Positions 4,346-60,937 of a stretch of DNA of 64,000 bases are shown here, piece by piece. Each line of letters starts with the position of its first letter. Positions within the stretch are counted from its first letter, which is position 1. The DNA is from Minisyncoccota bacterium. Its GTDB lineage: Bacteria > Patescibacteriota > Minisyncoccia > Phycocordibacterales > DATDWN01. The stretch is from positions 11,262 through 75,261 of the forward strand of contig DATDWN010000016.1 of the NCBI GenBank assembly GCA_036517395.1, written 5' to 3'. A program made the position numbers and the translations under genes. The notes under the pieces were generated by a model. That model had not been told where the DNA came from and ran no database searches. It worked only from the letters and a program-made list of their open reading frames with translations.

Positions 4346-4791
4346 ATTAATATCAAGTGACAAGAAGACAGTAGCTTTTTAGCTAAACTGAATTTGTCCC
4401 TAGTGAGGTGCCGGTAGCTAGTGCGATGGCGACTGGTATAGTCTTGGAGCCTGTGCTGATGCTGGTGGCTATGAGGGGTGTTTTCTAAACTGAAAATGAA
4501 TTAACCAAAGTATATATCTGTCAAAAAATAAGTCAATCCTATTATCCACCACCTTGAATAAAAGTAATTACTCTGACATGATTAAATTACAACTTAATAA
4601 AAAGTTGACCTAACCCCCATAGTTTTCTGTGGGATATGGTCAAAAACCGGTAAGAGACAAAGAACCCATCATATAGGGCTACTCTTACCGGTCCCTGCGG
4701 GAAACTGCAGGTGGAGGACCTCGGTCCTCACCTATGTGGTGGGCTTTTTGTGTCCAAAATACGAATTATTTTTATTATTAAATAAATTATT

Positions 4792-9339: not shown

Positions 9340-10185
9340 ATGAAAAAATATTTCCTAATTATTATTTTAATAATACTAGTAATTCCATCCGTCACTTTTG
9401 CTTCTTGGTGGAACCCTTTCACTTGGAAAGTCCCTGTTAAAAATAAATCTTCCCAAACAGTACCAGCTCGGCTAGCCACTACGACTCAAGCTAAAAGTGA
9501 GATTGAAGAATTAAAAAATCAACTCAAATTAGAAAGTGAAAAACGCCAAGAATTAGAAAAGAAAATTCAAACTACAAAGGAAAGTCCAAAAACTAAGACC
9601 CAGACAGTTTCTCCGCAACCATCTACATCAGTCCAAAAACCAGTAGAACAAAAAACCTTCACTACACCCAGTGGTAGTGTTATAGACTCCAGTGGAAATG
9701 TAATATCAACACCTAAAATAGACCAGACACAAACAACCGTTCAGCCCACTAGCGACCCAACCATAGGTCCTCGCTATTATGACTCTAAAAAAACTTGTAT
9801 CGGTCTCTCAGGTAGTCAATACTCTGATTGTGTAAACTATGCATTTAGCCCTCAAGTGCAACAAAAAGAAACTCAGCAAAACACGCAACAAAGGACTACT
9901 CAAGGTGAGACGATGTCCTACACTGAGGGAGCTAGGGCGAGAGCACAACAGGATTTAGTTACAGAATATAATAATGCTAAAGCTTATATAGACCAACAAA
10001 TTATTGATATAAAAAATAAGTATTATTTAGACCTAGAACAGAATAACAACCGAGCAGTTCCAATGTCTTTTATAGAAGGAATGGCACAAAAATTACTTAC
10101 AGATGCAAATAATAAAATTAATAAACTTATACTTCAGCAACAACAATTACAGCTTGATTATCAAATAAAACTAAATAATTTATAG
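9340..10185 (+). CDS. secreted coiled-coil / Q-rich protein
   Basis: Signal peptide, 'EIEELKNQLKLESEKRQELEKK' coiled coil, Q/T-rich. Confidence 0.45.
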   Translation: MKKYFLIIILIILVIPSVTFASWWNPFTWKVPVKNKSSQTVPARLATTTQAKSEIEELKNQLKLESEKRQELEKKIQTTKESPKTKTQTVSPQPSTSVQKPVEQKTFTTPSGSVIDSSGNVISTPKIDQTQTTVQPTSDPTIGPRYYDSKKTCIGLSGSQYSDCVNYAFSPQVQQKETQQNTQQRTTQGETMSYTEGARARAQQDLVTEYNNAKAYIDQQIIDIKNKYYLDLEQNNNRAVPMSFIEGMAQKLLTDANNKINKLILQQQQLQLDYQIKLNNL

Positions 10186-11595: not shown

Positions 11596-11698
11596 TGAGC
11601 TGGATAGGACTCGAACCTATATCATGACCTTAGAATGGTCAGCCCTGGGGAGGGTATAGTTTTCAAGACTACTGTTCTATCCATTGAACTACCAGCCC
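11596..11698 (-). tRNA. atypical tRNA, anticodon UGA (Ser-like) with extra hairpin; ~103 nt
   Basis: Reverse complement folds: acceptor GGGCTGG/CCAGCTC, D-arm GTTC-AATGGATA-GAAC, anticodon arm GTAGT-CTTGAAA-ACTAT, variable hairpin CCCT-CCCC-AGGG, an additional TGACC-ATTCTAA-GGTCA hairpin, T-arm ATAGG-TTCGAGT-CCTAT. Confidence 0.55.
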
Positions 11699-16438: not shown

Positions 16439-17899
16439 TTATTTTTTACTGTCCAAGGCGTTATTGATTCGCCTCTTTGCCATTGTTGTCTTGCAAAACG
16501 GCAACCATTTTTGATTTGGTTTGGCACTTTTTTTGGTTTCTATCTCCACCCGATCACCACTAACCAGTGTGCTTGTTATGGCTACCATCTTTCCATTGAC
16601 CTTTGCTCCTGACATATGGTCACCGACGTCGGTGTGTATTGCATAGGCAAAGTCTATGGTCGAAGAACCCTTTGGCAGATCAATAACATCGCCGATGGGC
16701 GTGAAGACAAAAATACGTTCTTCAAAAAAGTCATGTTTGATTCCTTCTACGAATTCATCCCCAGCCTCTTTTTGATATTCGATCAGCTCTTTAATCCATC
16801 CCGCCACACCTTCTTCTTTATATGATAGATGCGAGGCTATTCCATGCTCGGCTTCTTTATGCATATCTTCCGTTCGTATCTGAACTTCGATAATACCTCC
16901 GTCACCGGTAAATATAGTGGTGTGGATAGATTTGTAACCATTTAACTTTGGTGAGGCAATATAGTCCTTGATCCTTCCCGGAAGAGGTCTCCATGAACCA
17001 TGTATTATGCCTAGTATTTTATAGCAATCAGAAAGTTTCGAAACAATTATTCTCAAAGCCGAGATATCATAAATGTTTTCTACATTTTCCTTGTACTTCT
17101 GCATTTTCTTGTAGAGGGAATATATGCTTTTGACACGGTGGTCCATGCTGAAATCGGTGATACCGTTTTTGGCCAACTCTTTCTTTAAGGATTTTTGAAA
17201 TTTGTCCAGATGCTTTTCCACTTCTCCTCTTTTCTCTTTCATTATTTTTTTTATCTCTTTTGATTTTTCCGGATAAAGATAAGCAAAAGACAAATCCTCC
17301 AACTCTCTTTGCAGTTTTTTGATTCCTAATCGGTATGCTAAAGGGGCGTATATTTCCAGAGTCTCTTGGGCGATGCTAAGTTGTTTCTCTTTTGGAAGAA
17401 ACTCCAAGGTTTGCATATTGTGTAAGCGATCACAGAGCTTTATGATTAATACTCTCAAGTCTTTTGAGACCGCTAAGAAAAATTTACGTAAACTTTCATT
17501 GTATCGGTTTGTACCCCCGTATTTTATTTTTCCAAGTTTTGTCACACCCTCCACAAGAAATAAAATCTCATCACCAAACTCCTTTTTTATATCCTCTGCT
17601 GTAGTTTTCCTATCTTCTATGCAGTCATGCAAAAAGCCAGCAGCAATAGTTGAGACTCCCATACCCAGTTCGGCGATATTTTTTGCTACTGCAAAGAGGT
17701 GATCAAAATATGGCCCACCGCTTTTTCGGAGATGACCCTCATGAGCTTTTTGGCTAAAAGCATAGGCTTTTTGGATTAAATCAAGATCTTTTGGGCTTGG
17801 ATTATCCAAAAAAGATGTAATTTCTTTTACATTGTTCATTCCCCAATTGTAGTCAAAATAGGATAGATTACAATTACTTTGATTTCTTTTTGAAACCAC
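16439..17899 (-). CDS. (p)ppGpp synthetase/hydrolase, short RelA/SpoT form (HD + synthetase + TGS)
   Basis: HD 'FLHDCIEDRKTTAEDI', synthetase 'YDISALRIIV', TGS 'GDVIDLPKGSSTIDFAYAIH'. No C-terminal ACT. Overlaps topA by 26 nt. Confidence 0.8.
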   Translation of the reverse strand: MVSKRNQSNCNLSYFDYNWGMNNVKEITSFLDNPSPKDLDLIQKAYAFSQKAHEGHLRKSGGPYFDHLFAVAKNIAELGMGVSTIAAGFLHDCIEDRKTTAEDIKKEFGDEILFLVEGVTKLGKIKYGGTNRYNESLRKFFLAVSKDLRVLIIKLCDRLHNMQTLEFLPKEKQLSIAQETLEIYAPLAYRLGIKKLQRELEDLSFAYLYPEKSKEIKKIMKEKRGEVEKHLDKFQKSLKKELAKNGITDFSMDHRVKSIYSLYKKMQKYKENVENIYDISALRIIVSKLSDCYKILGIIHGSWRPLPGRIKDYIASPKLNGYKSIHTTIFTGDGGIIEVQIRTEDMHKEAEHGIASHLSYKEEGVAGWIKELIEYQKEAGDEFVEGIKHDFFEERIFVFTPIGDVIDLPKGSSTIDFAYAIHTDVGDHMSGAKVNGKMVAITSTLVSGDRVEIETKKSAKPNQKWLPFCKTTMAKRRINNALDSKK

Positions 17900-20159
17900 G
17901 CCTTTTTTTCTCTTCCTGCAAAATTTCTAGTGCGCGGGGAAGTTCTATTGTGTACACATCATCTTCTTTCAGAGAGCGAAAATCTTTTTGATGTACTATG
18001 TATGGCCCGAAACGTCCAATGTTTGCCGTTATCTTTTCACCGGTATCAGGATGAACCCCCAAGACTTTCGGAAGCGACAAATATTTTAGTGCATCAGCCA
18101 ATGTCACCGTGCTCAAATCTTTCTCTCTCGGTATTGATGCCATTTTTGGCTTAATTGCTTTTTTCGAACCCTTGCCCTTCACCCTCTCTCCAACCTGAAC
18201 ATATGGCCCGTACTTTCCAATATTTACAAAAATCGGCAAACCAGATTCCGGATCAACTCCTACGGGTTCATCCTTTTTAATCTCCTCTCCCGCCATAGTC
18301 AAAGCACCTTCACAGTCAGGATAGTTAGAACAGGAAAGAAACTTGCCGTTTCGAGAAAGTTTTATAATCATATCTTTGCCACATTTTGGACATCGGAATT
18401 CGAGACCGGCGTCACCCAGGTTTGTGATCTTATCAATTTTTTCCTTGGCTTTTACATCGGCCAAAAATGGCTTATAAAAAGTAGCCAATGTTTTTACATA
18501 TTCTTCCTTACCCTCGGCTATGAGGTCGAGTTTATCTTCCATGTCAGCCGTGAAGCTGTCGCTTATGTACTCGGCAAAATTTGCTTCCAAAAAACTAGAT
18601 ACAACATCGCCCGTGTCAGTGGGTACCAGTGCCTTGCTCACTTTCTCCACGTAACCTCTATCCTCCAAAGTTTTTATGGTTGAAGCGTATGTACTAGGCC
18701 TTCCTATGCCTCTTTTCTCAAGTTCCTTAATCAATCCTGCTTCAGAGTATCTTCCTGGTGGTTCGGTCTGCTTTTCTTCTGTATTAATTTTTTTCAAATT
18801 AAGAGCCTCACCGATTTTGACTTTTGGCAATTCAACATCATCTCCTCGCGAAGCCGGATCTCCGAGGAGCCATCCAGCAAATTTAATTTGCGAACCAGTT
18901 ATAGAAAAATCCGGAATATGTGTGTCAAGGACAGTCCTTGACATTGACACATTTGCTGATATTTTGGTTCGAAGTGTCAGAGCATCTTTCATTTGCGATG
19001 ACACAGTTCGTCGCCATATGAGCTTATAAAGTTTTTTCTGTTCATCATTAAAACCGACATGCTCGGCTTCAAAATGTGTTGGGCGTATAGCCTCGTGCGC
19101 CTCCTGTGCGTTTTTGGATTTAGTTGCAAATTTTCGTATTTGTAAATATTCTTTACCAAACTTTTTCTCCACCACTGCCGCAATCTGTGCTATAGCAACA
19201 CCACTCAAGTTTGTCGAGTCCGTGCGCATGTATGTAATATGTCCACACTCATATAATTTCTGTGCAATACCCATTGTTCTTGATGGAGAAAATCCTAGCC
19301 GTGATGATGCTGTCTGTTGAAGTGTGGAGGTTATGAAAGGCGCACGAGGGGATTTTTTCACATCCGTCTCTTTTACATCTTTCACAAACCAGCTGTTTTC
19401 CTTTCCTCCCTTTTCTGCAATTTCCACAATCCGCTCCATTTCTTTTTTATCTGTTGGTTCTTCTTCGCAGACAACAGTAAAAATCTGTTTTCCCCTAGGC
19501 AACGCCTCGGGAGATTTATCTGAGGTATCCGAGGCGTTGCCTAGGGAAGAGATCTCTGCTGAAATAATCCAGAAAGCATGAGACTTAAAAGCCCGGATTT
19601 CTCTCTCGCACTCCATGATAATGCGCAGAGCGGGGGATTGGACGCGTCCGGCAGAGAGGCCATATCGTACTTTTTTCCATATCAAACCCGACAAGTCGTA
19701 TCCCACGAGCCTATCGAGGACTCGCCTTGCTTCCTGCGCTTGTCGCAAATTCTGATCGATATCCCGTGGATTTTTCAAAGCTTCCTCTATCGCTTCCTTA
19801 GTAATTTCCTGATATGAAACCCTCTTCACTTTTTTGTTATGTACTATATGTTCTGTGCCCTTATCATTAATAAGTTCTGCCAAGTGCCATGCTATCGCCT
19901 CACCCTCGCGGTCGGGGTCAGTTGCAAGCAGAACTTCACTGGACTTTTTGGCCAAAGCTTTTATACCATTGACCACTTTCTCCTTGCCTTTGGAAATTTC
20001 ATAGTGCGGCACGAAACCACCCTCGATGTCGATGGCCACTTTGTTCGACTTTGGCAAATCACGAACATGGCCGACAGAAGCAACCACTTCATATCCACTT
20101 CCAAGATATTTTGAAATAGTCTTGGCTTTGGCGGGGGACTCAACGATAAGTAACTTCAT
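17874..20159 (-). CDS. topA: DNA topoisomerase I
   Basis: Toprim 'LLIVESPAKAKTISKYLG', active-site region, C-terminal Zn ribbons 'CPKCGKDM', 'CSNYPDC'. Confidence 0.9.
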   Translation of the reverse strand: MKLLIVESPAKAKTISKYLGSGYEVVASVGHVRDLPKSNKVAIDIEGGFVPHYEISKGKEKVVNGIKALAKKSSEVLLATDPDREGEAIAWHLAELINDKGTEHIVHNKKVKRVSYQEITKEAIEEALKNPRDIDQNLRQAQEARRVLDRLVGYDLSGLIWKKVRYGLSAGRVQSPALRIIMECEREIRAFKSHAFWIISAEISSLGNASDTSDKSPEALPRGKQIFTVVCEEEPTDKKEMERIVEIAEKGGKENSWFVKDVKETDVKKSPRAPFITSTLQQTASSRLGFSPSRTMGIAQKLYECGHITYMRTDSTNLSGVAIAQIAAVVEKKFGKEYLQIRKFATKSKNAQEAHEAIRPTHFEAEHVGFNDEQKKLYKLIWRRTVSSQMKDALTLRTKISANVSMSRTVLDTHIPDFSITGSQIKFAGWLLGDPASRGDDVELPKVKIGEALNLKKINTEEKQTEPPGRYSEAGLIKELEKRGIGRPSTYASTIKTLEDRGYVEKVSKALVPTDTGDVVSSFLEANFAEYISDSFTADMEDKLDLIAEGKEEYVKTLATFYKPFLADVKAKEKIDKITNLGDAGLEFRCPKCGKDMIIKLSRNGKFLSCSNYPDCEGALTMAGEEIKKDEPVGVDPESGLPIFVNIGKYGPYVQVGERVKGKGSKKAIKPKMASIPREKDLSTVTLADALKYLSLPKVLGVHPDTGEKITANIGRFGPYIVHQKDFRSLKEDDVYTIELPRALEILQEEKKRRGFKKKSK

Positions 20160-20198
20160 AGCTATTGATTATTACCTCAAAAAAAATATTTGTCCAAT

Positions 20199-20350
20199 TT
20201 TATCTGCGACGAGAGAGGAGCGCGTGAATGTGTAATCACATTCACAGCGTCCGAACGAGGAGTAGCAATGGTAAAAACCCCGCCCCTCTGGGGCGGAACA
20301 GGGGTCCAGGGCTTGCCCTGGGGTTTCATACCATTGATTAAAAACAATTG
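20199..20350. repeat. 140-bp structured repeat (family C), copy 1, between topA and dprA
   Basis: Near-identical to 42403-42540; hairpins GTGAATGTG-TAAT-CACATTCAC, GCCCC-TCTG-GGGGC, CCAGGGC-TT-GCCCTGG; carries the SD and mini-ORF. Confidence 0.8.
20267..20350 (+). CDS. 27-aa mini-ORF (MVKTPPLWGGTGVQGLPWGFIPLIKNN) inside the 140-bp repeat, perfect SD
   Basis: GAGGAG 5 nt upstream of the ATG. A second copy at 42471 differs by a synonymous CCC/CCA change. Confidence 0.4.
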
Positions 20351-20570
20351 AGCCTCGTGATGGAATCACGAGGCTCTCAAGAACGACGGAGTGTCTTACG
20401 GAGTTGTCTCAACTCCAGTGGCCATTTGCCCGAGCGGACGAGGTGGTCTTCCTACCCACGAATCCTCGACTCGTTTCGACCAACATCTTTCACAGAATGC
20501 TGCTCTTGTTCCTGGTGGGACGAGTGGTCCCCAGTGGTGAATGCACACATTCCCCACTTGAACACAAATT

Positions 20571-21425
20571 CTATTTCAAATGTATCTCACCCATCATTTC
20601 CTCAATCAGTCCCTTTATCTCCATCGTAGCAATTATAGTCTGAGCCGCGTAAACTGGTTTCCCTAGGCGGCGGATTATTTCATCTCGGGAAAGCGGCTCG
20701 TGCAAAAGCTCAATCAGCTCGCGTTCGTCCGTCGAGCAGTCGGAGTAGTCACGCATTTGGACCAGCTCGTCGCGCGGGCGCAGGCCGAGAGCTGTGACTA
20801 TGTCACTTGACTGTGTTATGGGTGTTGCCCCAAGTCGCAGAAGCATGTGTGGCCCCTCGGAAGTTTTGGAAAAAATAGAGTTCGGTACGGTGAAAACATC
20901 ACGGTTGTATTCGGTGGCGTATTTTGAAGTGATGAGTGTGCCTGATTTCAATTCCGCTTCGACAACTAGTGTTGCCTGACTTATTCCCGCAATGATTCGA
21001 TTGCGTTGTGGAAAATTATATGGAAACGAGGGGTAGCTATCTTCAAATTCAGAAATGAGTGCGCCTCCACTTTCTACAATTTCTTCAGCAAGTTTTCTAT
21101 GGCTGTGAGGATATAAAACTTTTTCCGAAAGCCCAGATCCGGGAACCGCCACAGTTGGTAAACCAGTTTTCAGAGCCGCACGATGTCCGATTGAATCAAT
21201 ACCCAAAGCCAGACCGGACACTATGGTAATAGAATATCCACGCAAGCCTTCAATTAATTTCTCACAAACATTTCTCCCATACTCGCTATATTTTCTTGAA
21301 CCAACCACAGATAAATATTTCTCCGTCTTCGGCAACTCGCCCACGATTCGCATTTTTTCCGGCGGGTCGTGTATTTGAAGCAGGAGTGGAGGAAAATCTT
21401 TTTTCAATAAATCTCTAATTTCCAT
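20571..21425 (-). CDS. dprA: DNA processing protein DprA/Smf
   Basis: 'VVGSRKYSEYG...IVSGLALGIDSIGHRAAL' Rossmann-like DprA core. Confidence 0.85.
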   Translation of the reverse strand: MEIRDLLKKDFPPLLLQIHDPPEKMRIVGELPKTEKYLSVVGSRKYSEYGRNVCEKLIEGLRGYSITIVSGLALGIDSIGHRAALKTGLPTVAVPGSGLSEKVLYPHSHRKLAEEIVESGGALISEFEDSYPSFPYNFPQRNRIIAGISQATLVVEAELKSGTLITSKYATEYNRDVFTVPNSIFSKTSEGPHMLLRLGATPITQSSDIVTALGLRPRDELVQMRDYSDCSTDERELIELLHEPLSRDEIIRRLGKPVYAAQTIIATMEIKGLIEEMMGEIHLK

Positions 21426-21520
21426 AGCTTTATTATATTGGAAATTATAAATTAAGTCATTGAAAATTGACTGAAAATTGGAAATTGTAAATTGAAAATT
21501 CCAATAGTGTTTGGTACACT

Positions 21521-22810: not shown

Positions 22811-22888
22811 TTGTAATTTAGACTTTTTAATTTAGAATTTAAAAATTAAGTCTAAATTCTAAATTTTAAATTAAAAATTTACTACCTT
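22811..22888. repeat. AT-rich palindromic repeat (family D) 5' of the ftsQ-like gene
   Basis: AATTTAGACTTTTTAATTTAGAATTTAAAAATTAAGTCTAAATTCTAAATTTTAAATT; a similar copy lies at 23792-23875. Confidence 0.65.
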
Positions 22889-23791
22889 ATGATTTCCTCA
22901 ACTTCGTCATCACTCTCTCACGAGGTATACCTGAGAAAAAAGAGAAACAAAAAACTTTTTCGGTATGGGTTAATTATTTTTATCATCGTAGCTCTCGTCG
23001 CTCTTGTTTCTTATGTTTCTCACAGACCACAGATTCGTATATCAAAGGTTGAACTTTCTGGAGGTGTTTTGGTTACAGAGACCGATGTCGATGCCAAATC
23101 CCGAGAGTATTTGTCCGGCTCGTATCTCTGGCTTTTCCCAAAGAACAACACTTTTTGGTATTCCGAGGGAGGCCTAGCGGACTATCTCAAGGAAAGTTTT
23201 AAAAGAATTGACACCATAAGTATTCACAGAAAAGATCTGAAAACTTTGGTGGTGGAAATAAAAGAACGCAAACCAGTAGCCATGTGGTGCGAAGGTAATC
23301 CAGGAGAAGTGCGACCAAGCTTGAATGCTGGGTCAGAAGTGCAACCGAGCGGGAGCGAGGGCGTACTGAGCTCAGCAGAGCGAACGTGCTATTTCCTAGA
23401 CCAGAATTCAACCATTTTTGCCAAAGCCCCAAACTTCTCGGGTGATGCCTATTTCAAATTTTATGGTTCGATTTCCGGAAACAATCCAATCGGCACGGAA
23501 TATATAGCAAGTAGCACAGAGTTCGCCGAGCTTTCTGATTTTATAATAAAGACAAAACAACTTTCACTTCGGCCTCAATATATGATTGCAAAAGATGGCG
23601 GGGAATTTAGTCTAGTTATTGCCGGTGGCGGACAGATTATGTTTGATATGCGCTTGCCCTTAGCAACTGTTGCTCAAAATCTTGAAGCGCTTTTGCGTAC
23701 ACAAGTATTGGCTACTAGCACAAGCGGAGTTCTCCCTGTCGAGTATATTGATCTGAGATATGGAAATAAGCTATTTTACAAAATAAAATAG
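22889..23791 (+). CDS. FtsQ/DivIB-like cell division protein (TM + POTRA)
   Basis: N-terminal TM, POTRA-like 'IRISKVELSGGVLVTETDV', beta domain. Confidence 0.55.
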   Translation: MISSTSSSLSHEVYLRKKRNKKLFRYGLIIFIIVALVALVSYVSHRPQIRISKVELSGGVLVTETDVDAKSREYLSGSYLWLFPKNNTFWYSEGGLADYLKESFKRIDTISIHRKDLKTLVVEIKERKPVAMWCEGNPGEVRPSLNAGSEVQPSGSEGVLSSAERTCYFLDQNSTIFAKAPNFSGDAYFKFYGSISGNNPIGTEYIASSTEFAELSDFIIKTKQLSLRPQYMIAKDGGEFSLVIAGGGQIMFDMRLPLATVAQNLEALLRTQVLATSTSGVLPVEYIDLRYGNKLFYKIK

Positions 23792-23875
23792 CAATTTAAA
23801 ATTTAGACTTTAAAATTTAAAAATTAACTATAAATTCTAAAGTCTAAATTTTAAATTTATAATGTTGAACTTCTC
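23792..23875. repeat. AT-rich palindromic repeat (family D) 3' of the ftsQ-like gene / 5' of dus
   Basis: Direct near-repeat of 22811-22888. Confidence 0.65.
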
Positions 23876-25299: not shown

Positions 25300-25440
25300 A
25301 TATCCGCACACTAACTTTGCTCTCGTTGCATTCAGTCTCAAAATATAGATGTATATCTTAGATTTAGATATAATTTCTAACTTTTGCTTGATTGTTAATG
25401 TGGCAACAGGGAGACAAGAGCAAAGTTAGTGTGCGGATAA
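25300..25440. repeat. family A MITE-like element, copy 1 (TIR TATCCGCACACTAACTTTGCTCT), abuts dnaX ATG
   Basis: Terminal inverted repeats; right end GTGTGCGGATAAATATG includes the dnaX start codon. Confidence 0.8.
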
Positions 25441-38716: not shown

Positions 38717-38804
38717 AATTTACAATTATCAATTTACAATTTCCAATCAATTCTCAATGTTCCAATGATTCAATTTGAAAATTGAGAACTGAAAATTGAA
38801 AATT
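38717..38804. repeat. ~88-bp AT-rich repeat (family D) abutting the apbE ATG
   Basis: ...CAATTCTCAATGTTCCAATGATTCAATTTGAAAATTGAGAACTGAAAATTGAAAATT-ATG; ~95% identical to 41342-41430. Confidence 0.75.
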
Positions 38805-39671
38805 ATGCAATTCGATGCTATTGGTACTCACTGGCAGATAGATATAAATGAAGAGGTGGAGGAGTCAAAAGTCCATAAAGTCAGAAAGTCTATAAAGGAG
38901 AGAATAGATATTTTTGACAAAGACTACTCGCGTTTTCGTGATGACTCGCTGGTGACGAAGATGTCACATGAGTCCGGTGGTTTTGTCTTGCCAAGTGATG
39001 CGGATAAAATGGTTTCTCTTTATAAAAAAATGTACGATATCACGGGTGGGCTTGTCACGCCTCTCATAGGTCAAGCCATATCAGACGCTGGATATGATGC
39101 AAAATATTCTCTCTCACCAAAACCTATGACCAAAGCACCCAAGTGGGAGGATGTTTTAATTTGGCATAACCCCAAACTTATGCTTTCAAAACCTGTCCTT
39201 CTTGATTTTGGTGCTTGTGGCAAGGGTTATCTAGTAGATATAGTTTCTGAAATATTAGAAGGTATTGGAATCAAATCCTACTGCGTTGATGCTGGGGGTG
39301 ACATGAGATGTAGAAGCGCAAAAGTTAAAAGTGAAAAGTTAAAAGTAGGGTTGGAGAATCCAAATAATAAAGAAGAGGTGATTGGTGTCATAAATCTAGG
39401 GAATCAAAGCTTATGTGGTTCCAGCGGCAACAGGAGGACGTGGGCAAATTTTCACCACATCATAAACCCAGAAACACTTACTTCACCTCGTGAAATTTCA
39501 GCTGTCTGGGTAGTGGCAGACGAAACTATCAAAGCCGACATCCTAACCACAGGACTTTTCTTTGTTTCTCCCGAAACTCTCTTAAAACATTTTGATTTTC
39601 AGTATCTTATTCTATATCCCGACTTTTCCATCAAAAAATCCGATGGATTTGATGCGAAAATATTTACGTAA
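38805..39671 (+). CDS. apbE: FAD:protein FMN transferase (ApbE family)
   Basis: 'FDKDYSRFRDDS', 'LDFGACGKGYLVD', 'DAGGDM' ApbE motifs; ATG at 38805 (the track start at 38796 is TTG). Confidence 0.75.
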   Translation: MQFDAIGTHWQIDINEEVEESKVHKVRKSIKERIDIFDKDYSRFRDDSLVTKMSHESGGFVLPSDADKMVSLYKKMYDITGGLVTPLIGQAISDAGYDAKYSLSPKPMTKAPKWEDVLIWHNPKLMLSKPVLLDFGACGKGYLVDIVSEILEGIGIKSYCVDAGGDMRCRSAKVKSEKLKVGLENPNNKEEVIGVINLGNQSLCGSSGNRRTWANFHHIINPETLTSPREISAVWVVADETIKADILTTGLFFVSPETLLKHFDFQYLILYPDFSIKKSDGFDAKIFT

Positions 39672-39715
39672 AAACAAACTGAAAGTGATACCAACAAAAT
39701 CTCCCCTCCTCATGT

Positions 39716-39850
39716 TTCGAGAAAGGCCTTTCGCAGGAGCTTAGAAAATAACGAGGTAATCCGAGATTATTTTCTTGAGCGACGAGAAGTTCGCTGGGCG
39801 AGCTCGCCCAGACAGATTGCCTTTCGAGGAATATGAGGAGGGGAGATTTT
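39716..39850. repeat. long palindromic element (family E): 19-bp perfect arms CAAAATCTCCCCTCCTCAT / ATGAGGAGGGGAGATTTTG around a ~100-bp structured core
   Basis: Seen directly; the core shares GAAAATAACGAGGTAATCCGAGATTATTTTC with 16330-16380. Confidence 0.6.
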
Positions 39851-39871
39851 GTACTGTGATATAATTTTCAT

Positions 39872-41341: not shown

Positions 41342-41430
41342 GAATTTTCAATTATCAATTTACAATTTTCAATCAATTCTCAATGTTCCAATGATTCAAT
41401 TTGAAAATTGAGAACTGAAAATTGAAAATT
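41342..41430. repeat. ~88-bp AT-rich repeat (family D) abutting the msrA ATG
   Basis: Near-identical to 38717-38804. Confidence 0.75.
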
Positions 41431-41433
41431 ATC

Positions 41434-41982: not shown

Positions 41983-42030
41983 AATAAAATCATTCCGACA
42001 TTCTCAAGAATGTCGGAATGATTTACTAAA

Positions 42031-42438
42031 ATGGATATGGATATAGACGAGGAAGAATTAAAAAATAAACTTACGCCAGAGGAGTATGCGGTTTTGAGAG
42101 AAAAGGGAACAGAAACTCCATTTAGCGGAAAGCTTTTACACGATGATAGAAATGGAATGTATAAATGCAAAGTCTGCGGCGCTTCACTTTTTTCATCCGA
42201 TGCCAAGTTTGATTCTGGTACCGGTTGGCCAAGTTTTGATCAGGCCATTCCCGGAAGTGTCAAAGAAGTGAAGGATGACACCCTCGGAATGAGTCGTATA
42301 GAAGTGGTTTGCGCAAAATGTAACTCTCATCTCGGTCACTTATTTGATGACGGTCCAACTAAAACTGGAAAAAGATATTGCTTGAACTCCGTCTGCCTTG
42401 ATTTATCTGCGACGAGAGAGGAGCGCGTGAATGTGTAA
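42031..42438 (+). CDS. msrB: peptide methionine sulfoxide reductase B
   Basis: 'CKVCGASLF', 'CAKCNSHLGHLFDDGP', 'RYCLNS'. The last ~10 codons extend into the 140-bp repeat. Confidence 0.9.
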   Translation: MDMDIDEEELKNKLTPEEYAVLREKGTETPFSGKLLHDDRNGMYKCKVCGASLFSSDAKFDSGTGWPSFDQAIPGSVKEVKDDTLGMSRIEVVCAKCNSHLGHLFDDGPTKTGKRYCLNSVCLDLSATREERVNV

Positions 42439-42590
42439 TCACATTCACAGCGTCCGAACGAGGAGTAACAATGGTAAAAACCCCGCCCCTCTGGGGCGGA
42501 ACAGGGGTCCAGGGCTTGCCATGGGGTTTCATACCATTGATCCGCACACTAATTCTGCCATGGTCCTGTTTTGAAATAATCCTAAAATAA
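42403..42590. repeat. 140-bp structured repeat (family C), copy 2, after msrB; mini-ORF 42471-42590
   Basis: Two substitutions versus copy 1; the one inside the mini-ORF is synonymous (CCC to CCA). Confidence 0.8.
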
Positions 42591-42677
42591 ATATCCATAA
42601 AATTTATTACAGTATATTGTTACAAATTCTGAAATTTAGTCAGGACAAAAAACAATGGCAGATTTAGTGTGCGGATG
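42541..42677. repeat. family A element, copy 3
   Basis: TCCGCACACTAATTCTGCCATGGTCCTG ... CAGGACAAAAAACAATGGCAGATTTAGTGTGCGGATG. Confidence 0.8.
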
Positions 42678-42766: not shown

Positions 42767-43261
42767 ATGCAATCAATAAACAATTTTCTTTTTTCAAACC
42801 CAAAACTTTCTTGGTTCTGGCTTATTGTTAGAGTTTATGTAGGATATGAATGGATTATGGCTGGATATGAAAAAATAATAAATCCGGCATGGGTAGGGAG
42901 TTCCGCTGGGGGAGCGATAACCGGTTTTGTAAATGGGGCTTTGGCAAAAACTGCGGGAGCTCATCCGGACGTCTCAGAGTGGTATGCTTGGTTTCTAACT
43001 CACGCTGTTTTGCCCAATGCAAACCTCTGGTCTCATGCTGTTGCATACGGCGAGCTCGCGGTTGGTTTGGGTTTGATTTTTGGAGTGCTCACATTCTGGG
43101 CCGCTTTCTTTGGTTTCTTTATGAACTTAAATTACCTTCTGGCCGGAACCGTAAGCACGAATCCAGTTTTGCTCGTTCTCGCTCTTCTCATAATGCTGGC
43201 ACATCGCGTAGCTGGACGTATTGGATTTGATTACTATATATTTAAAAATAGATTTAGTTAG
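42767..43261 (+). CDS. DoxX-family membrane protein
   Basis: 'WLIVRVYVGYEWIMAGYEKI' DoxX-like; 4 TM; flanked by two direct MITE copies. Confidence 0.5.
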   Translation: MQSINNFLFSNPKLSWFWLIVRVYVGYEWIMAGYEKIINPAWVGSSAGGAITGFVNGALAKTAGAHPDVSEWYAWFLTHAVLPNANLWSHAVAYGELAVGLGLIFGVLTFWAAFFGFFMNLNYLLAGTVSTNPVLLVLALLIMLAHRVAGRIGFDYYIFKNRFS

Positions 43262-43262
43262 T

Positions 43263-43401
43263 TTATCCGCACACTAAATATGCCATCGTCCTGTTTTTAA
43301 ATAATATAAAAATAAATATCTTCTAATTTATCACAGTATATTGTTACAAATTATAAAACTAAGTCAGGACAAAAAACAATGGCAGAATTAGTGTTCGGAT
43401 G
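43263..43401. repeat. family A element, copy 4 (same orientation as copy 3, ~85% identical)
   Basis: TTATCCGCACACTAAATATGCCATCGTCCTG ... GGCAGAATTAGTGTTCGGATG. Confidence 0.8.
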
Positions 43402-43483
43402 AATACGAAGAATGGCAGGTCGCGTTGACCTGCCATCTAGGGGATTGACCCTATCTCGGTTTTGTCCCGCCGAGTTGCGGGTG

Positions 43484-44710
43484 TTACTTGTCGGTGCCGG
43501 TCCGAGCCGTCAGCGCCTTGGAACGGCGCTGACGCTTCGGAGTGACCGACATGTTGAACGAGGAGCCCGTCATCGTGATCATACCGGTCGCTTCGTCCAC
43601 CGTGAAGTGGGCGCCGCGATCGAACGTGATGACCCGATCGCCGATGGTGACCGTGGACCGACCCTCCGTCTCCGCTCCCGCACGAATGCGGGCGACGGCG
43701 ATTGAGGGGTGGGGAAGCGCCTGAGGTGCGGGTTGAACCGGTTCCGGTGCGGGCACCGCGACGGCGCGGGCCGTGAACGTGAATCCACTGAGACCCCCGC
43801 CGTAGAAGACGGGGTTCATGCATCCCTGAAGCGACATGAGCTCAGGCTCGCTGCCGTCGGGGAAGTGGAATCGTGCCCTGTACCCGGGTTGCGGTGGGTT
43901 GATCCGGCGCGGACGGGCGCGGTCGGCGTAACCGACCATGCCCTCCCCCGAGATCATACCTTCCTCGACTGGTCCGATGCGTCGGATGTTCTGGCGAACC
44001 GTGGCGGCTTCTGCACCGGGTGTCGCGCGAATGTACTGCGCGACCGCCTGGTCCTGGAAGTGGTTCGTCAAACGCTCCGTCTCCGTCGGCGTGATGCCGC
44101 CGACAACGATTGGAGGACCAGACGTGACCGGATTCTGCTCCAGCTCACGACCCCAGTGTTCACGGGCGTTCTCCTCGCGCTCCCTCGCCATCGCCGCATC
44201 ATGTCGTCTTGCGATGTAATCGCGAAGGAACCAGAGTGCGATGAATGTGACGGCGCCCAGCAGAAGCAGTAGGGAGAACCACAGATAGTTATCGTACCTG
44301 CTCGCCGATGCAGTCGCCGTGGTGCTTTCGGGCTTCTTCTCCTCGGCCGCCTTGACCACGTGGGTCTCGGGCGGGGGAGGTGTCGCCGCCTCGTTCGTGA
44401 TGAACTCGTTCACCGCCATGCCGGCGGGAACACACAACACGTCACCACGCGAATCGTACAGCCATGCGATGGTGTCCTTGCCCTTGCCTGACACCCGGGC
44501 TTGAAGCCCCGGGTTCGTGGCGAGTAGCATATTCCACTTGGGTCCGTATTTCTGGTACAACACGTCGCCGTGCTGGACCGTATAGACGGTTCCGTTGTAG
44601 ATCGCTTTGCAGTTGGTCGCGGTGAGCGGCGTGATGCGGTTGATCGTCTGCGCCGCGGCCGTGACGGCCGAGAGCGCGAGAACGATCGCGAGAGACGTGA
44701 TACGTTTCAT
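43484..44710 (-). CDS. high-GC LysM domain protein with signal peptide and central TM (foreign origin)
   Basis: ~65% GC versus an AT-rich flank; LysM 'YTVQHGDVLYQKYGPKWNMLLATNPGL'; signal 'MKRITSLAIVLALSAVTAAAQ'; TM 'LWFSLLLLLGAVTFIALWF'. Confidence 0.7.
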   Translation of the reverse strand: MKRITSLAIVLALSAVTAAAQTINRITPLTATNCKAIYNGTVYTVQHGDVLYQKYGPKWNMLLATNPGLQARVSGKGKDTIAWLYDSRGDVLCVPAGMAVNEFITNEAATPPPPETHVVKAAEEKKPESTTATASASRYDNYLWFSLLLLLGAVTFIALWFLRDYIARRHDAAMAREREENAREHWGRELEQNPVTSGPPIVVGGITPTETERLTNHFQDQAVAQYIRATPGAEAATVRQNIRRIGPVEEGMISGEGMVGYADRARPRRINPPQPGYRARFHFPDGSEPELMSLQGCMNPVFYGGGLSGFTFTARAVAVPAPEPVQPAPQALPHPSIAVARIRAGAETEGRSTVTIGDRVITFDRGAHFTVDEATGMITMTGSSFNMSVTPKRQRRSKALTARTGTDK

Positions 44711-44824
44711 CGACTGGTCCTTTCAAGTAACATCGCAGGTATCTAGTCCCTAGGGGACGAGCTATACCGCGATTCTGGCGAGTACCATAGCATAGTCTAT
44801 ATATACTGTCAAGCACTTTATTGA

Positions 44825-44893
44825 CCCCAGTAGTAAAGTACCCCGTAGTACAGCAGAGCTGACTACGGGGCAAAGAAGCTCACTACGGGGTAG
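44825..44893. repeat. family B element copy between the LysM island and the DEAD-box gene
   Basis: CCCCAGTAGTAAAGTACCCCGTAGTACAGCAGAGCTGACTACGGGGCAAAGAAGCTCACTACGGGGTAG. Confidence 0.65.
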
Positions 44894-44948
44894 ACATCAA
44901 AGTAGATTTACTGTATAGTGGCCTTATTGAGCCTTCTCATTAAAACAT

Positions 44949-46493: not shown

Positions 46494-46640
46494 CCCTAGT
46501 AGTAGAGCAGAGCTCACTACAGGGCTATCCCGTAGTGAAAATGAAATTATGCACAAAAACACAAACTGGTCGGCATTATTAACATATAATCTTGAAATGA
46601 TACTAGGATCATAAGGCAATTTCATTTTCTACTACTGGGA
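46494..46640. repeat. family B element copy with TIRs (CCCGTAGTGAAAATGAAATT / AATTTCATTTTCTACTACTGGG), abuts dedA ATG
   Basis: Left CCCTAGTAGTAGAGCAGAGCTCACTACAGGG; right end ...CTACTACTGGG-ATG. Confidence 0.65.
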
Positions 46641-49428: not shown

Positions 49429-49571
49429 TTTATCCGCACACTAACTTCTGTCTCGTTACCTGTGCAATGTATTAAAAGTTTATATAATTCTATTCCGCTA
49501 ATAATTATTATACCATGACAAATCTATAACAGGTAACAAAATGCACAAGATAGAAGTTAGTGTGCGGACAG
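49429..49571. repeat. family A element, copy 6, abuts LOG start (minus strand)
   Basis: Reverse complement of the left end reads GTGTGCGGATAAATTATG, which is the LOG start. Confidence 0.8.
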
Positions 49572-49603: not shown

Positions 49604-50353
49604 TTACAACCCAACACTTTTCAAAAATACATTCAACTCCTCTCCAACTATTTCTCGGTAAGTGTTTTGAGCGATTTTTCCCAGTTCTATATTTTGAACA
49701 CGAACTCTTCGAAGATCTCGAACAGTGTACCCAAGCTTCTCGGTCATTCTTCTCAACTGGCGATTCTTGCCTTCAGTTAGCACAATGCTGAAAAAATTTT
49801 CCGACAGCTTTTTCACTATTGCCGGTTTAGTCACCCCATCTCCAATGTTCACCCCATCTTGCATGTGTTTCAGAAATGCCGGTGTAAATTTTCTATCAAC
49901 TTCTACAATATATTCTTTCTCATGATCATGCGCGGGGTTGAGAAGTCGGTCGGTTATCCTACCGTCGTTTGTCATAATCAATAGCCCGTAAGACTCCTTG
50001 TCCAGTCTCCCAACAGGGAACACCCCTGCGGGGAACTTTGCGCTCTGCATTATTCCTTTCTCTTTTTCTTGAGGGTTTGTACTGACTACCCCTCTCGGTT
50101 TGTTGTAGGCCAGATAAATGAGCTTCTTTTTTGTATGCACTCCTCTGATTTCCACATTGTCGCTTTCCATAACTTTATCACCGAGGATTGCCACTCGTCC
50201 GTTTATTAGAACCTTCTTACTTTTTATAAGCTCATCCACTCCCGTGCGAGTGGCTACGCCTTTGTGGGCGAGGTATTTATTTATCCGCACACCAACTCTG
50301 GCATCGCTTTTTGTGTTCTGGCTTAGTTTTGTAGCGTATTTTTTATTTTTCAT
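49604..50353 (-). CDS. rluB: rRNA pseudouridine synthase (RsuA/RluB family, S4 + catalytic domain)
   Basis: S4 'RINKYLAHKGVATRTGVDELI', catalytic 'PVGRLDKESYGLLIMTNDG'. The N-terminal ~24 codons lie inside a MITE copy, so the true start is uncertain. Confidence 0.8.
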   Translation of the reverse strand: MKNKKYATKLSQNTKSDARVGVRINKYLAHKGVATRTGVDELIKSKKVLINGRVAILGDKVMESDNVEIRGVHTKKKLIYLAYNKPRGVVSTNPQEKEKGIMQSAKFPAGVFPVGRLDKESYGLLIMTNDGRITDRLLNPAHDHEKEYIVEVDRKFTPAFLKHMQDGVNIGDGVTKPAIVKKLSENFFSIVLTEGKNRQLRRMTEKLGYTVRDLRRVRVQNIELGKIAQNTYREIVGEELNVFLKSVGL

Positions 50354-50424: not shown

Positions 50425-50443
50425 ATGGGATATGCATCCATAT

Positions 50444-50577
50444 TTACCCACACACTAAATCTGCCATTGTTTTGTCCTGGTTCTGTCTATAATCTGCTAT
50501 TATACATTATAGTAGATTTGTAAGTGTTGTATAATATTATAAAAAAAGGACGATGGCAGAATTAGTGTGTGGGTTTA
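50444..50577. repeat. family A element, copy 8 (tandem with copy 7, upstream of the FKBP gene)
   Basis: TTTACCCACACACTAAATCTGCCATTGTTTTGTCCTGG ... GACGATGGCAGAATTAGTGTGTGGGTTTAC. Confidence 0.75.
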
Positions 50578-51622: not shown

Positions 51623-52909
51623 GTGAAATCTTTTTCTTTTGATATACATTCTGAACTTCCAAATTCTCTCGGACGAGTTGGTACAATACACACTCCACAT
51701 GGTGACATACAAACACCGGCATTTGTCGCAGTTGGAACAAAAGGCACGGTAAAAAGTTTGACGCCGGAACAGGTCGCAGATACTGGCACACAAGTCATAA
51801 TCGCAAATACATATCATTTATATTTAGAGCCCGGAGACGAAAAGATAAAAAATATTGGAGGGTTGCACAAAGCGATGAACTGGTCTGATCCTCTTATGAC
51901 CGACTCTGGCGGCTTCCAAGTTTTTTCTCTAGGTGTCGCATATGGCAAAAAGATTAGCAAAGTTTCAAAAAAAGATGAACTAATACTATCCAAGCCTCTC
52001 CCTATGTCCGACATAGGGAGATTTGCGGAAACAAGACTTCAACAAGATGAGGCAGTACCAAAGATTGCTCGAATTGATTCCAATGGGGTAATGTTCCGCG
52101 ATCATATATCGGGCAGCGCTCACTATTTTACTCCGGAAAAATCGATAGAGATTCAGCACAATCTCGGCGCAGATATTATTTTTGCCTTTGACGAATGCAC
52201 CTCACCTCATGAGTCGCTTCATTATCAGAAAGAAGCGCTTGAGAGAACTCACCGCTGGGCTCGACGTTCTCTTGAACATCATTCCGACATTCTCAAGAAT
52301 GTCGGAATGAATGGCCCTGCGATTTTTGGCATTGTGCAGGGCGGGCGAGATGAAACCTTGCGTAAAGAAAGTGCAAAATATATGGCAGATTTAAGGGCCG
52401 GAGGTCCTGAACGAAGCGAAGGATTCGACGGTTTCGGAATAGGCGGATCATTTGAAAAAGAAGATATGAGCAAGGCAGTAGAATGGTGCAATCAGATTTT
52501 GCCAAGAGAGAAGCCAAGGCATCTGCTTGGTATCGGCGAGCCAACCGATTTATTTATGGCGGTTGAGTTCGGGTGTGATTTGTTTGACTGTGTTTCACCC
52601 ACTCGTATCGCTCGAAACGGCGGAGTTTATACAAAAGAAGGAAGAGTCAATTTACTGAATCAAGAATTTCGAGAAGATTCAAAACCTCTCGACCAAGGTT
52701 GTCTCTGCTACACATGCAAAAACTTTTCGTGCGCTTATGTTGCACATCTCTTTCATGCAAAAGAAATTTTGGCTTATACGCTGGCATCAATACACAACCT
52801 TTATTTTATAACTCACATGGTGGATGGTATGCGCGAGACTATGCAAAGCGGGGATTTTGAAAGCTACAAAAAAGATTTTTTAAGTAAATACTACAGGACT
52901 AATTTGTGA
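51623..52909 (+). CDS. tgt: queuine tRNA-ribosyltransferase
   Basis: 'LMTDSGGFQVFSL', 'DCVSPTRIARNGG', Zn site 'CLCYTCKNF...H'; carries a 30-bp palindromic segment at 52290-52319. Confidence 0.9.
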   Translation: MKSFSFDIHSELPNSLGRVGTIHTPHGDIQTPAFVAVGTKGTVKSLTPEQVADTGTQVIIANTYHLYLEPGDEKIKNIGGLHKAMNWSDPLMTDSGGFQVFSLGVAYGKKISKVSKKDELILSKPLPMSDIGRFAETRLQQDEAVPKIARIDSNGVMFRDHISGSAHYFTPEKSIEIQHNLGADIIFAFDECTSPHESLHYQKEALERTHRWARRSLEHHSDILKNVGMNGPAIFGIVQGGRDETLRKESAKYMADLRAGGPERSEGFDGFGIGGSFEKEDMSKAVEWCNQILPREKPRHLLGIGEPTDLFMAVEFGCDLFDCVSPTRIARNGGVYTKEGRVNLLNQEFREDSKPLDQGCLCYTCKNFSCAYVAHLFHAKEILAYTLASIHNLYFITHMVDGMRETMQSGDFESYKKDFLSKYYRTNL

Positions 52910-55252: not shown

Positions 55253-55394
55253 GCATGTCCGCACACCAACTTTGGCATTGTCTCTTTGTTGCTAGGTTAG
55301 GAATTACATCAAATTTTAGATGTATATCTATATATGGATGTATGTATAAACTCTGAGACAGGGCAATGATGCCAAAGTTGGTGTGCGGATAAAT
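55253..55394. repeat. family A element, copy 9, abuts uvrA ATG
   Basis: CATGTCCGCACACCAACTTTGGCATTGTCTC ... GATGCCAAAGTTGGTGTGCGGATAAATATG. Confidence 0.8.
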
Positions 55395-60782: not shown

Positions 60783-60937
60783 CCCCAGTAGTAGAGCGTA
60801 GCTCACTACAGGGTAAACCCCGTAGTGAAAATGACATAAAATTTTATGCAAAGTTATTACTTTGCCATGTCATTTTCTACTACGGGGTTATCCACAGCGC
60901 ACTTGACTTGTGATACCCCGTAGGGGTATAGTGAGTT
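60783..60937. repeat. family B element copy containing the csoR promoter/operator
   Basis: CCCCAGTAGTAGAGCGTAGCTCACTACAGGG...CCCCGTAGTGAAAATGACAT...ATGTCATTTTCTACTACGGGG...ATACCCCGTAGGGGTAT. Confidence 0.65.
60903..60932 (+). promoter_or_regulatory. csoR-copA promoter (TTGACT-18-TATAGT) with embedded CsoR-type operator palindrome ATACCCCGTAGGGGTAT
   Basis: Perfect 7-3-7 palindrome at 60913-60929, like known CsoR operators (B. subtilis copZA type). The -10 box ends 6 nt before the csoR ATG, implying a leaderless mRNA. Confidence 0.55.

What the first reader, a model, noticed from the sequence alone, without database searches (positions are those of the whole stretch)
20199..20350. 140-bp structured repeat in two copies carrying a perfect SD and a 27-codon ORF, differing only by a synonymous change
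Copies at 20199-20350 and 42403-42590 are ~98% identical. Each has three hairpins, GAGGAG 5 nt before an ATG, and an ORF MVKTPPLWGGTGVQGLPWGFIPLI... The only difference inside the ORF is CCC to CCA (both Pro), hinting at purifying selection on a tiny protein. Alternatively the hairpins act as a mobile terminator or structured-RNA module. In copy 2 the upstream part extends msrB by 10 codons.
Basis: seen in the sequence. Interest (0 to 1): 0.7.

Follow-up and report, generated by a model that had tools for sequence, protein, structure and literature searches.

The report
Small hairpin-rich mobile DNA repeat
The two 140-bp copies belong to a multi-copy, hairpin-rich mobile DNA repeat that has spread through the genomes of some tiny uncultured (CPR/Paceibacterota) bacteria; it is not a gene for a small protein.

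Summary
The repeat is real: window 20199-20338 and 42402-42541 are 138/140 identical, in the same orientation, 55% GC in a 40% GC window, and strongly folded (z about -5.5). It is not a two-copy feature. I found at least 9 distinct insertion sites, 97.9-100% identical, in metagenome contigs of this organism and in a distant Ca. Zambryskibacteria MAG. That MAG's orthologous proteins are only 38-82% identical to the window's. The two genomes give reciprocal empty sites, so the element inserts and moves between lineages. The mini-ORF is not conserved: 2 synonymous and 3 non-synonymous changes, a frameshift in one copy, ATG-TAA in another, and a different C-terminus at every site. Copies lie in both orientations relative to genes, usually at gene ends. 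There are no terminal inverted repeats, no target duplication and no Rfam match. Most substitutions break predicted pairs, as expected for young decaying copies. Copy 2 abuts an unrelated inverted-repeat MITE; together they replaced the tail of msrB. Verdict: a new family of small non-autonomous structured repeat (like RPE or BOX), with an unknown mobilising enzyme. Modest interest.

The parts
20199..20338 (+). Element copy 1 (140 bp). It lies between the dprA terminator hairpin and the topA promoter-like site, antisense to both genes.
   Evidence: CM 178.4 bits; context
20217..20252 (+). 5' hairpin domain core: GGAGCGC-[GUGAAUGUG UAAU CACAUUCAC]-AGCGUCC. This is the only part with a diverged relative, in the 16S leader of L008.
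   Evidence: 3 compensatory pairs in this helix
20266..20336 (+). Y-shaped 3' domain: closing stem P1 (20266-20273 with 20329-20336), P2 hairpin 20280-20296, P3 hairpin 20306-20321. On the minus strand P2 is followed by TTTTT and looks like a terminator.
20268..20351 (+). Mini-ORF of copy 1 (27 codons plus stop), preceded by GAGGAG at 20257-20262. Judged not to be a gene.
42402..42541 (+). Element copy 2 (140 bp). Its first base completes the Asp codon of msrB, and it supplies the last 11 codons and the stop of msrB.
42031..42438 (+). msrB, with its C-terminal tail replaced by element sequence (…CLD-LSATREERVNV*). The L001 orthologue ends …CLDLDVKD* with no element.
42541..42675 (.). Unrelated MITE with terminal inverted repeats (TCCGCACACTAA…TTAGTGTGCGGA), abutting copy 2 and sharing one T with it. 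Removing the element and this MITE gives an msrB end of CLDVGE*.
   Evidence: reconstruction read directly
20350..20376 (-). Native terminator-like hairpin of dprA (12-bp stem plus T-run), 11 nt from the right end of copy 1. It is flank, not part of the repeat.
20168..20196 (-). Promoter-like site for topA (TGGACA-17-AATAAT), starting 3 nt outside the left end of copy 1. It is flank.

Best explanation
The 140-bp unit is a copy of a small, non-autonomous, horizontally spreading mobile DNA repeat of CPR (Paceibacterota/Zambryskibacteria) genomes. It is selfish DNA that survives at gene ends and in spacers. Shown: it is multi-copy, nearly identical between copies, inserted at unrelated sites in both orientations, absent from orthologous sites in another genome, and far more conserved than the genes around it. 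Its mini-ORF decays. Inferred: it carries no transposase, so it must be moved in trans. It has no terminal inverted repeats and no target duplication, but it has strong hairpins at both ends that fold equally as ssDNA or RNA. My preferred mechanism is therefore recognition of the folded ends by a structure-specific enzyme, for example an HUH/Y1-type single-strand transposase, with insertion into AT-rich DNA next to a T. I put about 0.3 on that step. Effects on the host look incidental: new C- or N-terminal protein tails, and a one-directional terminator-like hairpin.
For: There are at least 9 distinct insertion sites at 97.9-100% identity. Contigs break inside the element (L013, L014; L021 and L022 consistent). 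The element is seen in independent JGI, ENA and NCBI assemblies. The L001 genome shares gene order here, but its genes are 65-69% identical in DNA and its proteins 38-82% identical, while the element is 97.9% identical. Empty sites are reciprocal. L001 msrB has no element. The window gene at 37742 has none, whereas its L001 orthologue carries the element after codon 3, with the frame kept open by 141 nt. Both orientations relative to transcription occur, about 5 versus 4. Flanks are AT-rich at 24-39% GC. Eight of 11 substitutions fall in paired positions, all 8 break the pair, and none is compensated. The ORF is not conserved. The ssDNA fold has z -6.4 on both strands. The genome is full of other MITE-like repeats, one abutting copy 2. 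Clustering and nesting of such elements is described for BOX, RUP and SPRITE (PMC10969869).
Against: No autonomous partner or mobilising enzyme was identified. The one Y1_Tnp gene seen (L008 10305-10937) is flanked by its own, unrelated hairpins. No conserved 4-5-nt target was found beyond a flanking T. No excision or insertion polymorphism was found within the species: every strain-level assembly examined has the window's copies. Only one diverged relative exists, so selection on the fold itself is barely testable. Near-identity of copies could in principle also reflect selection on every base.
Confidence: 0.8

Rival explanations
1. The element is a gene for a conserved 24-27-residue peptide (or a type I toxin-like small hydrophobic peptide) with its own Shine-Dalgarno site, duplicated in the genome.
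For: A perfect GAGGAG lies 5 nt before the ATG. The two window copies differ in the ORF only by a synonymous change. Multi-copy, highly structured mRNAs with an occluded SD are typical of type I toxins (established knowledge).
Against: L008 has a frameshift and L019 reads ATG-TAA. There are 3 non-synonymous versus 2 synonymous changes (p = 0.36). The C-terminus differs at every site. The start codon is buried in an 8-bp stem. No promoter lies upstream within the unit. Three of six frames are stop-free, so an open frame is not special. An exhaustive HMMER search of the other fully open frame (minus strand) found no relatives beyond the copies themselves; for the mini-ORF frame only the word-indexed search was run, and it too found only copies.
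Confidence: 0.03
2. The element is a functional structured RNA module (sRNA, processing or stability element, or portable terminator) kept nearly identical by selection, and its spread is secondary.
For: The fold is very stable. The minus strand has a G+C hairpin followed by T5. The 5' hairpin domain has a 76%-identical relative in the 16S rRNA leader of L008, with 3 compensatory pairs and an identical UAAU loop and flanks. That relative is almost certainly transcribed.
Against: There is no orientation bias relative to genes. Insertions sit inside coding sequence (L001, msrB, the DHH gene). Mutations in copies break pairs without compensation. There is no Rfam match at E<=10. The plus strand has no U-tract after the closing stem.
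Confidence: 0.12
3. The two copies are the attL/attR ends of a 22-kb integrated island, or the template and variable repeats of a diversity-generating retroelement.
For: They are direct repeats 22.2 kb apart. One copy lies at the 3' end of a gene. Copy 2 has A at both positions that differ from copy 1. DGRs are common in CPR (established knowledge).
Against: The interval holds core genes (dprA, serS and others). At least 7 more copies lie elsewhere. Variation across copies is not adenine-specific. No reverse transcriptase or integrase was seen next to any copy.
Confidence: 0.02
4. The repeat is an assembly or chimera artefact.
For: The repeat length (140) is close to the final k-mer (141) of some assemblies. 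One assembly (L019) shows an oddly divergent copy.
Against: The same copies with the same flanks appear in independent JGI, ENA and NCBI assemblies and in a separate Lake Baikal MAG.
Confidence: 0.01

Closest known systems
Rickettsia palindromic elements (RPE)
   Same: About 100-150 bp and strongly folded. Dispersed in a small genome, in spacers and also inside genes with the reading frame kept. An open frame runs through the element. No known transposase. (RPE properties from PMC10969869.) Here the L001 copy adds 47 in-frame codons after codon 3 of a gene, and 3 of 6 frames are stop-free.
   Different: No sequence relationship was tested or is expected. Most copies here are at gene ends or in spacers rather than inside genes. 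The host phylum differs. The copies are near-identical, which suggests recent activity, and the element crosses genera.
Pneumococcal BOX / RUP / SPRITE repeats
   Same: Modular, hairpin-rich, non-coding repeats of 100-200 bp at gene ends. They cluster and abut or insert into one another, and SPRITE has a terminator-like hairpin (PMC10969869). Here copy 2 abuts another MITE, and the minus strand carries a terminator-like hairpin.
   Different: RUP has inverted-repeat ends and is linked to IS630-Spn1 (established knowledge). This element has no inverted ends, and no partner IS is known.
Classical MITEs (e.g. Correia, ERIC, QMITE; also the TCCGCACAC family in this same window)
   Same: Small, non-autonomous, multi-copy, AT-rich targets, stable folded transcripts.
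   Different: The defining terminal inverted repeats and target-site duplications are absent. The element is G+C-rich relative to its host, 55% versus 40%.
IS200/IS605-derived palindrome-associated elements (PATE) and REP/REPIN-RAYT systems
   Same: No inverted ends and no duplication. Hairpins near both ends. A Y1 (HUH) transposase gene exists in the same genome.
   Different: The left and right hairpins are unlike each other. No conserved 4-5-nt target lies next to the left end. The Y1 gene's own flanking hairpins (CACTTGGCGG…CCGCCAAGTG) are unrelated to the element.

Membership tests
Classical MITE | Small (<~500 bp), non-coding, multi-copy | tested here: met
   140 bp, at least 9 sites, ORF not conserved
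Classical MITE | Terminal inverted repeats | tested here: not met
   The left end TTTATCTGCGACG… and the reverse complement of the right end ATCAATGGTATGA… show no similarity (read). All pairing is internal to each domain.
Classical MITE | Target-site duplication | tested here: not met
   Flanks of 9 sites share only a T on each side (7/8 left, 7/9 right). At most a 1-nt duplication is possible.
Classical MITE | A parent IS with the same ends | not testable with these tools
   Only about 0.2 Mb of the genome was held. None was seen in the window or loci.
IS200/IS605-type PATE | No inverted ends or duplication; subterminal hairpins | tested here: met
   The 5' hairpin domain (helix 19-54) starts 18 nt from the left end. 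The closing stem ends 2 nt from the right end. The ssDNA fold has z -6.4.
IS200/IS605-type PATE | Similar left and right hairpins and a conserved 4-5-nt target 5' of the left end | tested here: not met
   The hairpins are dissimilar. Left flanks are CCAAT, CTTGA, AGAGAT, TCGGTT, GGGTTT, AATATT, TAACTT, TACTGT.
IS200/IS605-type PATE | Cognate Y1 transposase and strand bias relative to replication | tested here: inconclusive
   Y1_Tnp is present (26.1 bits) but with unrelated flanking hairpins. Copies on the same contig share orientation (2/2), but the GC-skew analysis is ambiguous.
REP/REPIN | 20-40-nt palindromes, or inverted REP doublets forming one long hairpin, flanking a RAYT gene | tested here: not met
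   The architecture is a hairpin plus a three-way junction. The RAYT-like gene is flanked by a different palindrome.
Rickettsia palindromic element-like | In-frame insertion in genes with an open frame through the element | tested here: inconclusive
   There is one in-frame intragenic case (L001) and two C-terminal replacements (msrB, DHH gene). Three of 6 frames are open, which occurs in 4.5% of shuffles.
Small-protein / type I toxin gene | Conserved intact ORF with excess synonymous change | tested here: not met
   Frameshift, immediate stop, 3 non-synonymous versus 2 synonymous changes
DGR template/variable repeat | Adenine-specific differences; adjacent reverse transcriptase | tested here: not met
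   Changes are G>A, A>C, C>T, G>T, C>A. No RT was seen next to any copy, though neighbouring genes were only partly annotated.
Any Rfam 15 RNA family (ribozymes, omega/HEARO RNAs, riboswitches and others) | Covariance-model match | tested here: not met
   Nothing at gathering score or at E<=10 inside the element
Portable intrinsic terminator (SPRITE-like) | G+C hairpin plus U-tract, oriented with the upstream gene | tested here: inconclusive
   The hairpin plus T5 exists on the minus strand only. Roughly half of the copies face the wrong way.

The most novel reading that the evidence does not exclude
The element is a new type of bacterial transposable unit without inverted ends or target duplication. 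It would be moved as a folded single strand (or through an RNA copy) by an as yet unidentified enzyme. Its 5' hairpin, shared with the 16S rRNA leader, would be a host- or enzyme-binding signal co-opted for mobility. It would currently be spreading horizontally between distantly related CPR genera. The cluster of 9 changes in one orthologous copy (L019) would then reflect real element-specific turnover or gene conversion rather than assembly noise.
Probability: 0.15. Interest if true: 0.6.

Novelty: new member of a known kind. Interest (0 to 1): 0.3.

Why it matters
CPR bacteria have tiny genomes, and I found no published description of their small mobile repeats in four full-text searches. 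This window shows one such genome carrying several families of 135-160-bp repeats. One family lacks the usual transposon hallmarks yet is 98% identical in two genera whose proteins are about 60% identical. In practice the element rewrites gene ends (msrB, a DHH phosphoesterase gene, a small secreted protein). It also breaks assemblies and has seeded spurious 'hypothetical proteins' in public databases (P0001-P0006). None of this opens a long-standing question, and the peptide idea that made the finding attractive is refuted.

Tried and rejected
Rfam at gathering score and at E<=10 found nothing in the element. Phage and plasmid collections gave no match. Four IMG/VR pattern scans gave no real match: three returned nothing, and the 20 hits to a gapped hairpin pattern were chance, with no CM support. 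I translated two of the three stop-free frames and searched the 5.8-billion protein index, and ran an exhaustive HMMER search for one of them. These returned only the copies themselves plus unrelated repetitive proteins. I looked for a species-level empty site through the msrB and dprA clusters, but every strain carries the insertions. I tested whether the element targets the inverted-repeat end of the neighbouring MITE family. Only copy 2 is truly adjacent; two other flanks are weakly similar (p about 0.05 each). No common hairpin or motif exists at the reconstructed targets. The GC-skew orientation test was ambiguous, and there is no DnaA-box cluster at the skew minimum. The attL/attR, DGR, type I toxin, riboswitch and self-splicing intron readings were considered and rejected, as set out under the rivals. 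Five of the 14 metagenome hits were chance 20-mers.

Full report
**Observation.** The window holds two direct copies of a 140-bp sequence, at 20199-20338 and 42402-42541. They are 138/140 identical. No further copy is in the window by blastn, nhmmer or covariance-model search. The unit is 55% G+C in a 40% G+C window. It folds into a 5' hairpin domain (core GGAGCGC-[9-bp stem, UAAU loop]-AGCGUCC) and a Y-shaped 3' domain, which is a closing stem carrying two G+C hairpins. As RNA the MFE is -65.6 kcal/mol with z = -5.5. The reverse strand folds as well, and so do both strands as DNA. GAGGAG (20257-20262), a 5-nt spacer and ATG (20268) are present. Copy 2 ends at 42541, not 42590. What follows it is a different repeat.

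**Context in the window.** Copy 1 lies in the 411-nt spacer between dprA (20571-21425, minus strand) and topA (17874-20159, minus strand), so it is antisense to both. It sits between a strong dprA terminator-like hairpin (20376-20350) and a promoter-like site for topA (20196-20168). Copy 2 begins at the third base of the Asp codon near the end of msrB (42031-42438, plus strand). It supplies that gene's last 11 codons and its stop. The right end of copy 2 shares one T with a 135-bp MITE that has 20-nt inverted ends (TCCGCACACTAA…, 42541-42675). That family has at least seven copies in the window. Joining the sequence left of copy 2 to the sequence right of that MITE gives …TGC CTT GAT GTA GGA GAG TAA, i.e. 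CLDVGE*. This is a plausible original msrB end, read directly. The orthologue in L001 ends CLDLDVKD*.

**Copies elsewhere.**
- One scan of reference genomes with a 24-mer found one copy, in a Ca. Zambryskibacteria MAG from Lake Baikal (L001).
- One metagenome scan with a 20-mer found nine loci with full or contig-end-truncated copies, plus five chance 20-mers.
- Protein-index look-ups of ORFs that gene callers had placed on the element added independent ENA assemblies.
- Together these give at least nine distinct insertion sites: window ×2, L004/L015, L005/L009, L002/L013/L016, L008/L017/L018/L019, L007, L014 and L001. Identity is 97.9-100%.
- Several contigs start or stop inside the element, as expected for a multi-copy repeat.
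- The window's organism is annotated in NCBI as a Ca. Paceibacterota MAG.

**Evidence for mobility and horizontal spread.** L001 shares gene order with window 37.7-42.4 kb, apart from an inverted three-gene block. Its genes are only 65-69% identical in DNA and its proteins 38-82% identical, yet its element copy is 97.9% identical. The insertion sites are not shared. L001 msrB has no element. The window's gene at 37742 has none, whereas its L001 orthologue carries the element just after codon 3. There the element plus one base (141 nt, 47 codons) keeps the frame open. These reciprocal empty sites, together with the contrast in divergence, show that the unit inserts into new places and has recently entered at least one of the two lineages.

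**The mini-ORF is not a gene.**
- Over the 23 codons inside the element, the copies show 2 synonymous and 3 non-synonymous substitution events. The neutral expectation for synonymous sites is 25%, and the binomial p is 0.36.
- The L008 copy has a 1-nt deletion that frameshifts the ORF.
- The L019 copy reads ATG TAA.
- The C-terminus continues into unrelated flank, so ORF length ranges from 22 to 39 codons.
- The start codon lies in the 8-bp closing stem.
- Three of the six frames are stop-free across the unit. This occurs in 4.5% of shuffles, so an open frame is unremarkable.

**There is little sign of a selected RNA role.** Relative to neighbouring genes, about five copies would be transcribed on the minus strand and four on the plus strand. 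They lie after stops, before starts, between convergent genes and inside coding sequence. The minus strand has a terminator-like hairpin plus T5 and the plus strand has none. Eight of the 11 substitutions among copies fall in paired positions, all 8 break the pair, and none is compensated. This is what young, neutrally decaying copies would show. Rfam gives nothing, even at E<=10.

**One observation points the other way.** A 76%-identical relative of the first ~60 nt sits about 120-220 nt upstream of the 16S rRNA in L008 (9367-9466). It has the same UAAU loop and flanks and three compensatory pairs in the hairpin. Its 3' part pairs with a 27-nt inverted copy downstream of the 16S gene, like an rRNA processing stem. 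So the 5' hairpin is a conserved structure in at least one transcribed setting. Three further compensatory pairs in the closing stem come from the same single sequence. They rest on a model-fitted alignment, so I give them little weight.

**Mechanism.** The ends are not inverted repeats. The flanks show no duplication beyond a possible single T, and the targets are AT-rich with no common motif or hairpin. That excludes classical MITE membership. It leaves the classes that move without these marks, chiefly hairpin-recognising single-strand (HUH/Y1) systems. A Y1_Tnp gene does exist in this genome (L008 10305-10937). However, it is flanked by its own, unrelated palindromes, which are not repeated elsewhere. 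The element also lacks the matching left and right hairpins and the conserved target of IS200/IS605 elements. Copies on the same contig share orientation in both cases available, but the skew-based test is ambiguous. I therefore commit to 'non-autonomous mobile repeat' at 0.8. I treat 'moved as a folded single strand by a structure-specific enzyme' as the most likely but unproven step, at about 0.3.

**Comparison with known elements.** The closest analogues are:
- Rickettsia palindromic elements, for size, fold, in-frame presence in genes and the lack of a known enzyme;
- the pneumococcal BOX/RUP/SPRITE repeats, for modular hairpins, a terminator-like module and clustering with other repeats (PMC10969869).

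The element fails the defining tests for classical MITEs, REP/REPIN, IS200/IS605 PATEs, DGR repeats, small-protein genes and all Rfam families. I found no description of such repeats in CPR bacteria in the searchable literature.

**Unexplained.** L019 and L017 are the same locus from two assemblies and are 99.93% identical over 13.8 kb. Nine of their ten differences fall inside the 139-nt element copy, are of mixed types, and mostly break pairs. This could be assembly noise at a repeat whose length matches the assembler's k-mer. It could also be gene conversion from an unseen subfamily, or local hypermutation. Reads are needed to decide.

**Verdict.** The peptide reading is refuted and the 'mobile structured module' alternative is essentially right. 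The element is a new family of a known kind of selfish repeat. Its points of interest are the missing transposon hallmarks and the near-identity across CPR genera. Interest is 0.3.

Noticed in passing
window 25303-25437, 42541-42675, 43266-43401, 49433-49568, 50284-50295 (one end only), 50441-50572, 55258-55389; also L004, L007, L008, L009, L015: An abundant MITE family of about 135 bp with 20-30-nt inverted ends (A)TCCGCACACYAA…; one copy (25301) is flanked by TA/TA. Two direct copies bracket the DoxX gene (42767-43261), like a small composite transposon. None was seen in the Baikal MAG locus.
   Followed up: partly
window 43400-44900: An island of markedly higher G+C (2-kb windows at 47-49% against about 40%), starting right after the second MITE that flanks DoxX. 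It holds a 408-aa ORF (43484-44710, minus strand) with no Pfam match. It could be foreign DNA or a chimeric join.
   Followed up: partly
window 39695-39851: A 155-nt unit with a 24-bp perfect closing stem (CAAAATCTCCCCTCCTCATGTTTC…), MFE -85 kcal/mol, z -10, no Rfam match, single copy in the window. It looks like another inverted-repeat MITE. It lies at the spot where gene order is inverted relative to L001.
   Followed up: partly
window 4607-4729 (+): A full-length match to Rfam LOOT RNA (RF03000), 71.8 bits against a gathering score of 46.4. This RNA class has no known function.
   Followed up: no
window 11596-11698 (-): The tRNA covariance model matches end to end over 103 nt (61.2 bits), but ARAGORN does not call it. 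It is probably a tRNA gene with an intron or a long insertion.
   Followed up: no
window 20380-20560: About 180 nt of G+C-rich, strongly folded sequence between dprA and copy 1. It is not repeated elsewhere and has no Rfam match at E<=10. It could be an unannotated RNA on the minus strand.
   Followed up: partly
window 38717-38806 and 41343-41432 (97.8% identical); partial copies 21449-21502 and 63087-63119; also L007, L008, L009: An AT-rich (about 24% G+C) 90-bp intergenic repeat made of AATTGAAAATTG-like sub-repeats. It is a further dispersed family.
   Followed up: no
window 22815-22881 and 23793-23863; 41986-42021 and 52275-52310; 46494-46547 and 60783-60837: Three more short repeat families: an AT-only palindrome pair bracketing the 300-aa ORF (product not identified) at 22889-23791, a 36-bp perfect hairpin (one copy between msrA and msrB), and a 55-bp hairpin unit.
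   Followed up: no
window about 18000-21500: Cumulative GC skew reaches its minimum near 20 kb, and gene orientation diverges at 21.4-21.5 kb (dprA/topA on the minus strand, serS on the plus strand), as at a replication origin. No DnaA-box cluster is there.
   Followed up: partly
L008 6562-9249 (-), 7806-8456 (-), 10305-10937 (-): The 16S rRNA gene is interrupted by an intron that encodes a LAGLIDADG endonuclease. Upstream lies a Y1_Tnp (RAYT-like) gene with the palindrome CACTTGGCGGCTTAGCCGCCAAGTG just before its start, again inside its coding sequence, and a variant after its stop. About 230 nt of G+C-rich folded sequence (about 9900-10130) has no Rfam match.
   Followed up: partly
L019 3750-3888 versus L017 10037-10175: Two assemblies of the same locus are 99.93% identical over 13.8 kb, but 9 of the 10 differences lie inside the element copy. 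This is unexplained: assembly noise, gene conversion or local hypermutation.
   Followed up: partly
P0018 (msrB variant, 147 aa, ENA contig of 1844 bp) and P0004 (nr, labelled 'uncultured archaeon'): These are deletion variants of the element. One lacks about 65 nt from the 5' hairpin to P2, which fuses msrB to a different frame. The other lacks 12 nt of the junction between P2 and P3. They show that public 'hypothetical proteins' are being called on this repeat.
   Followed up: no
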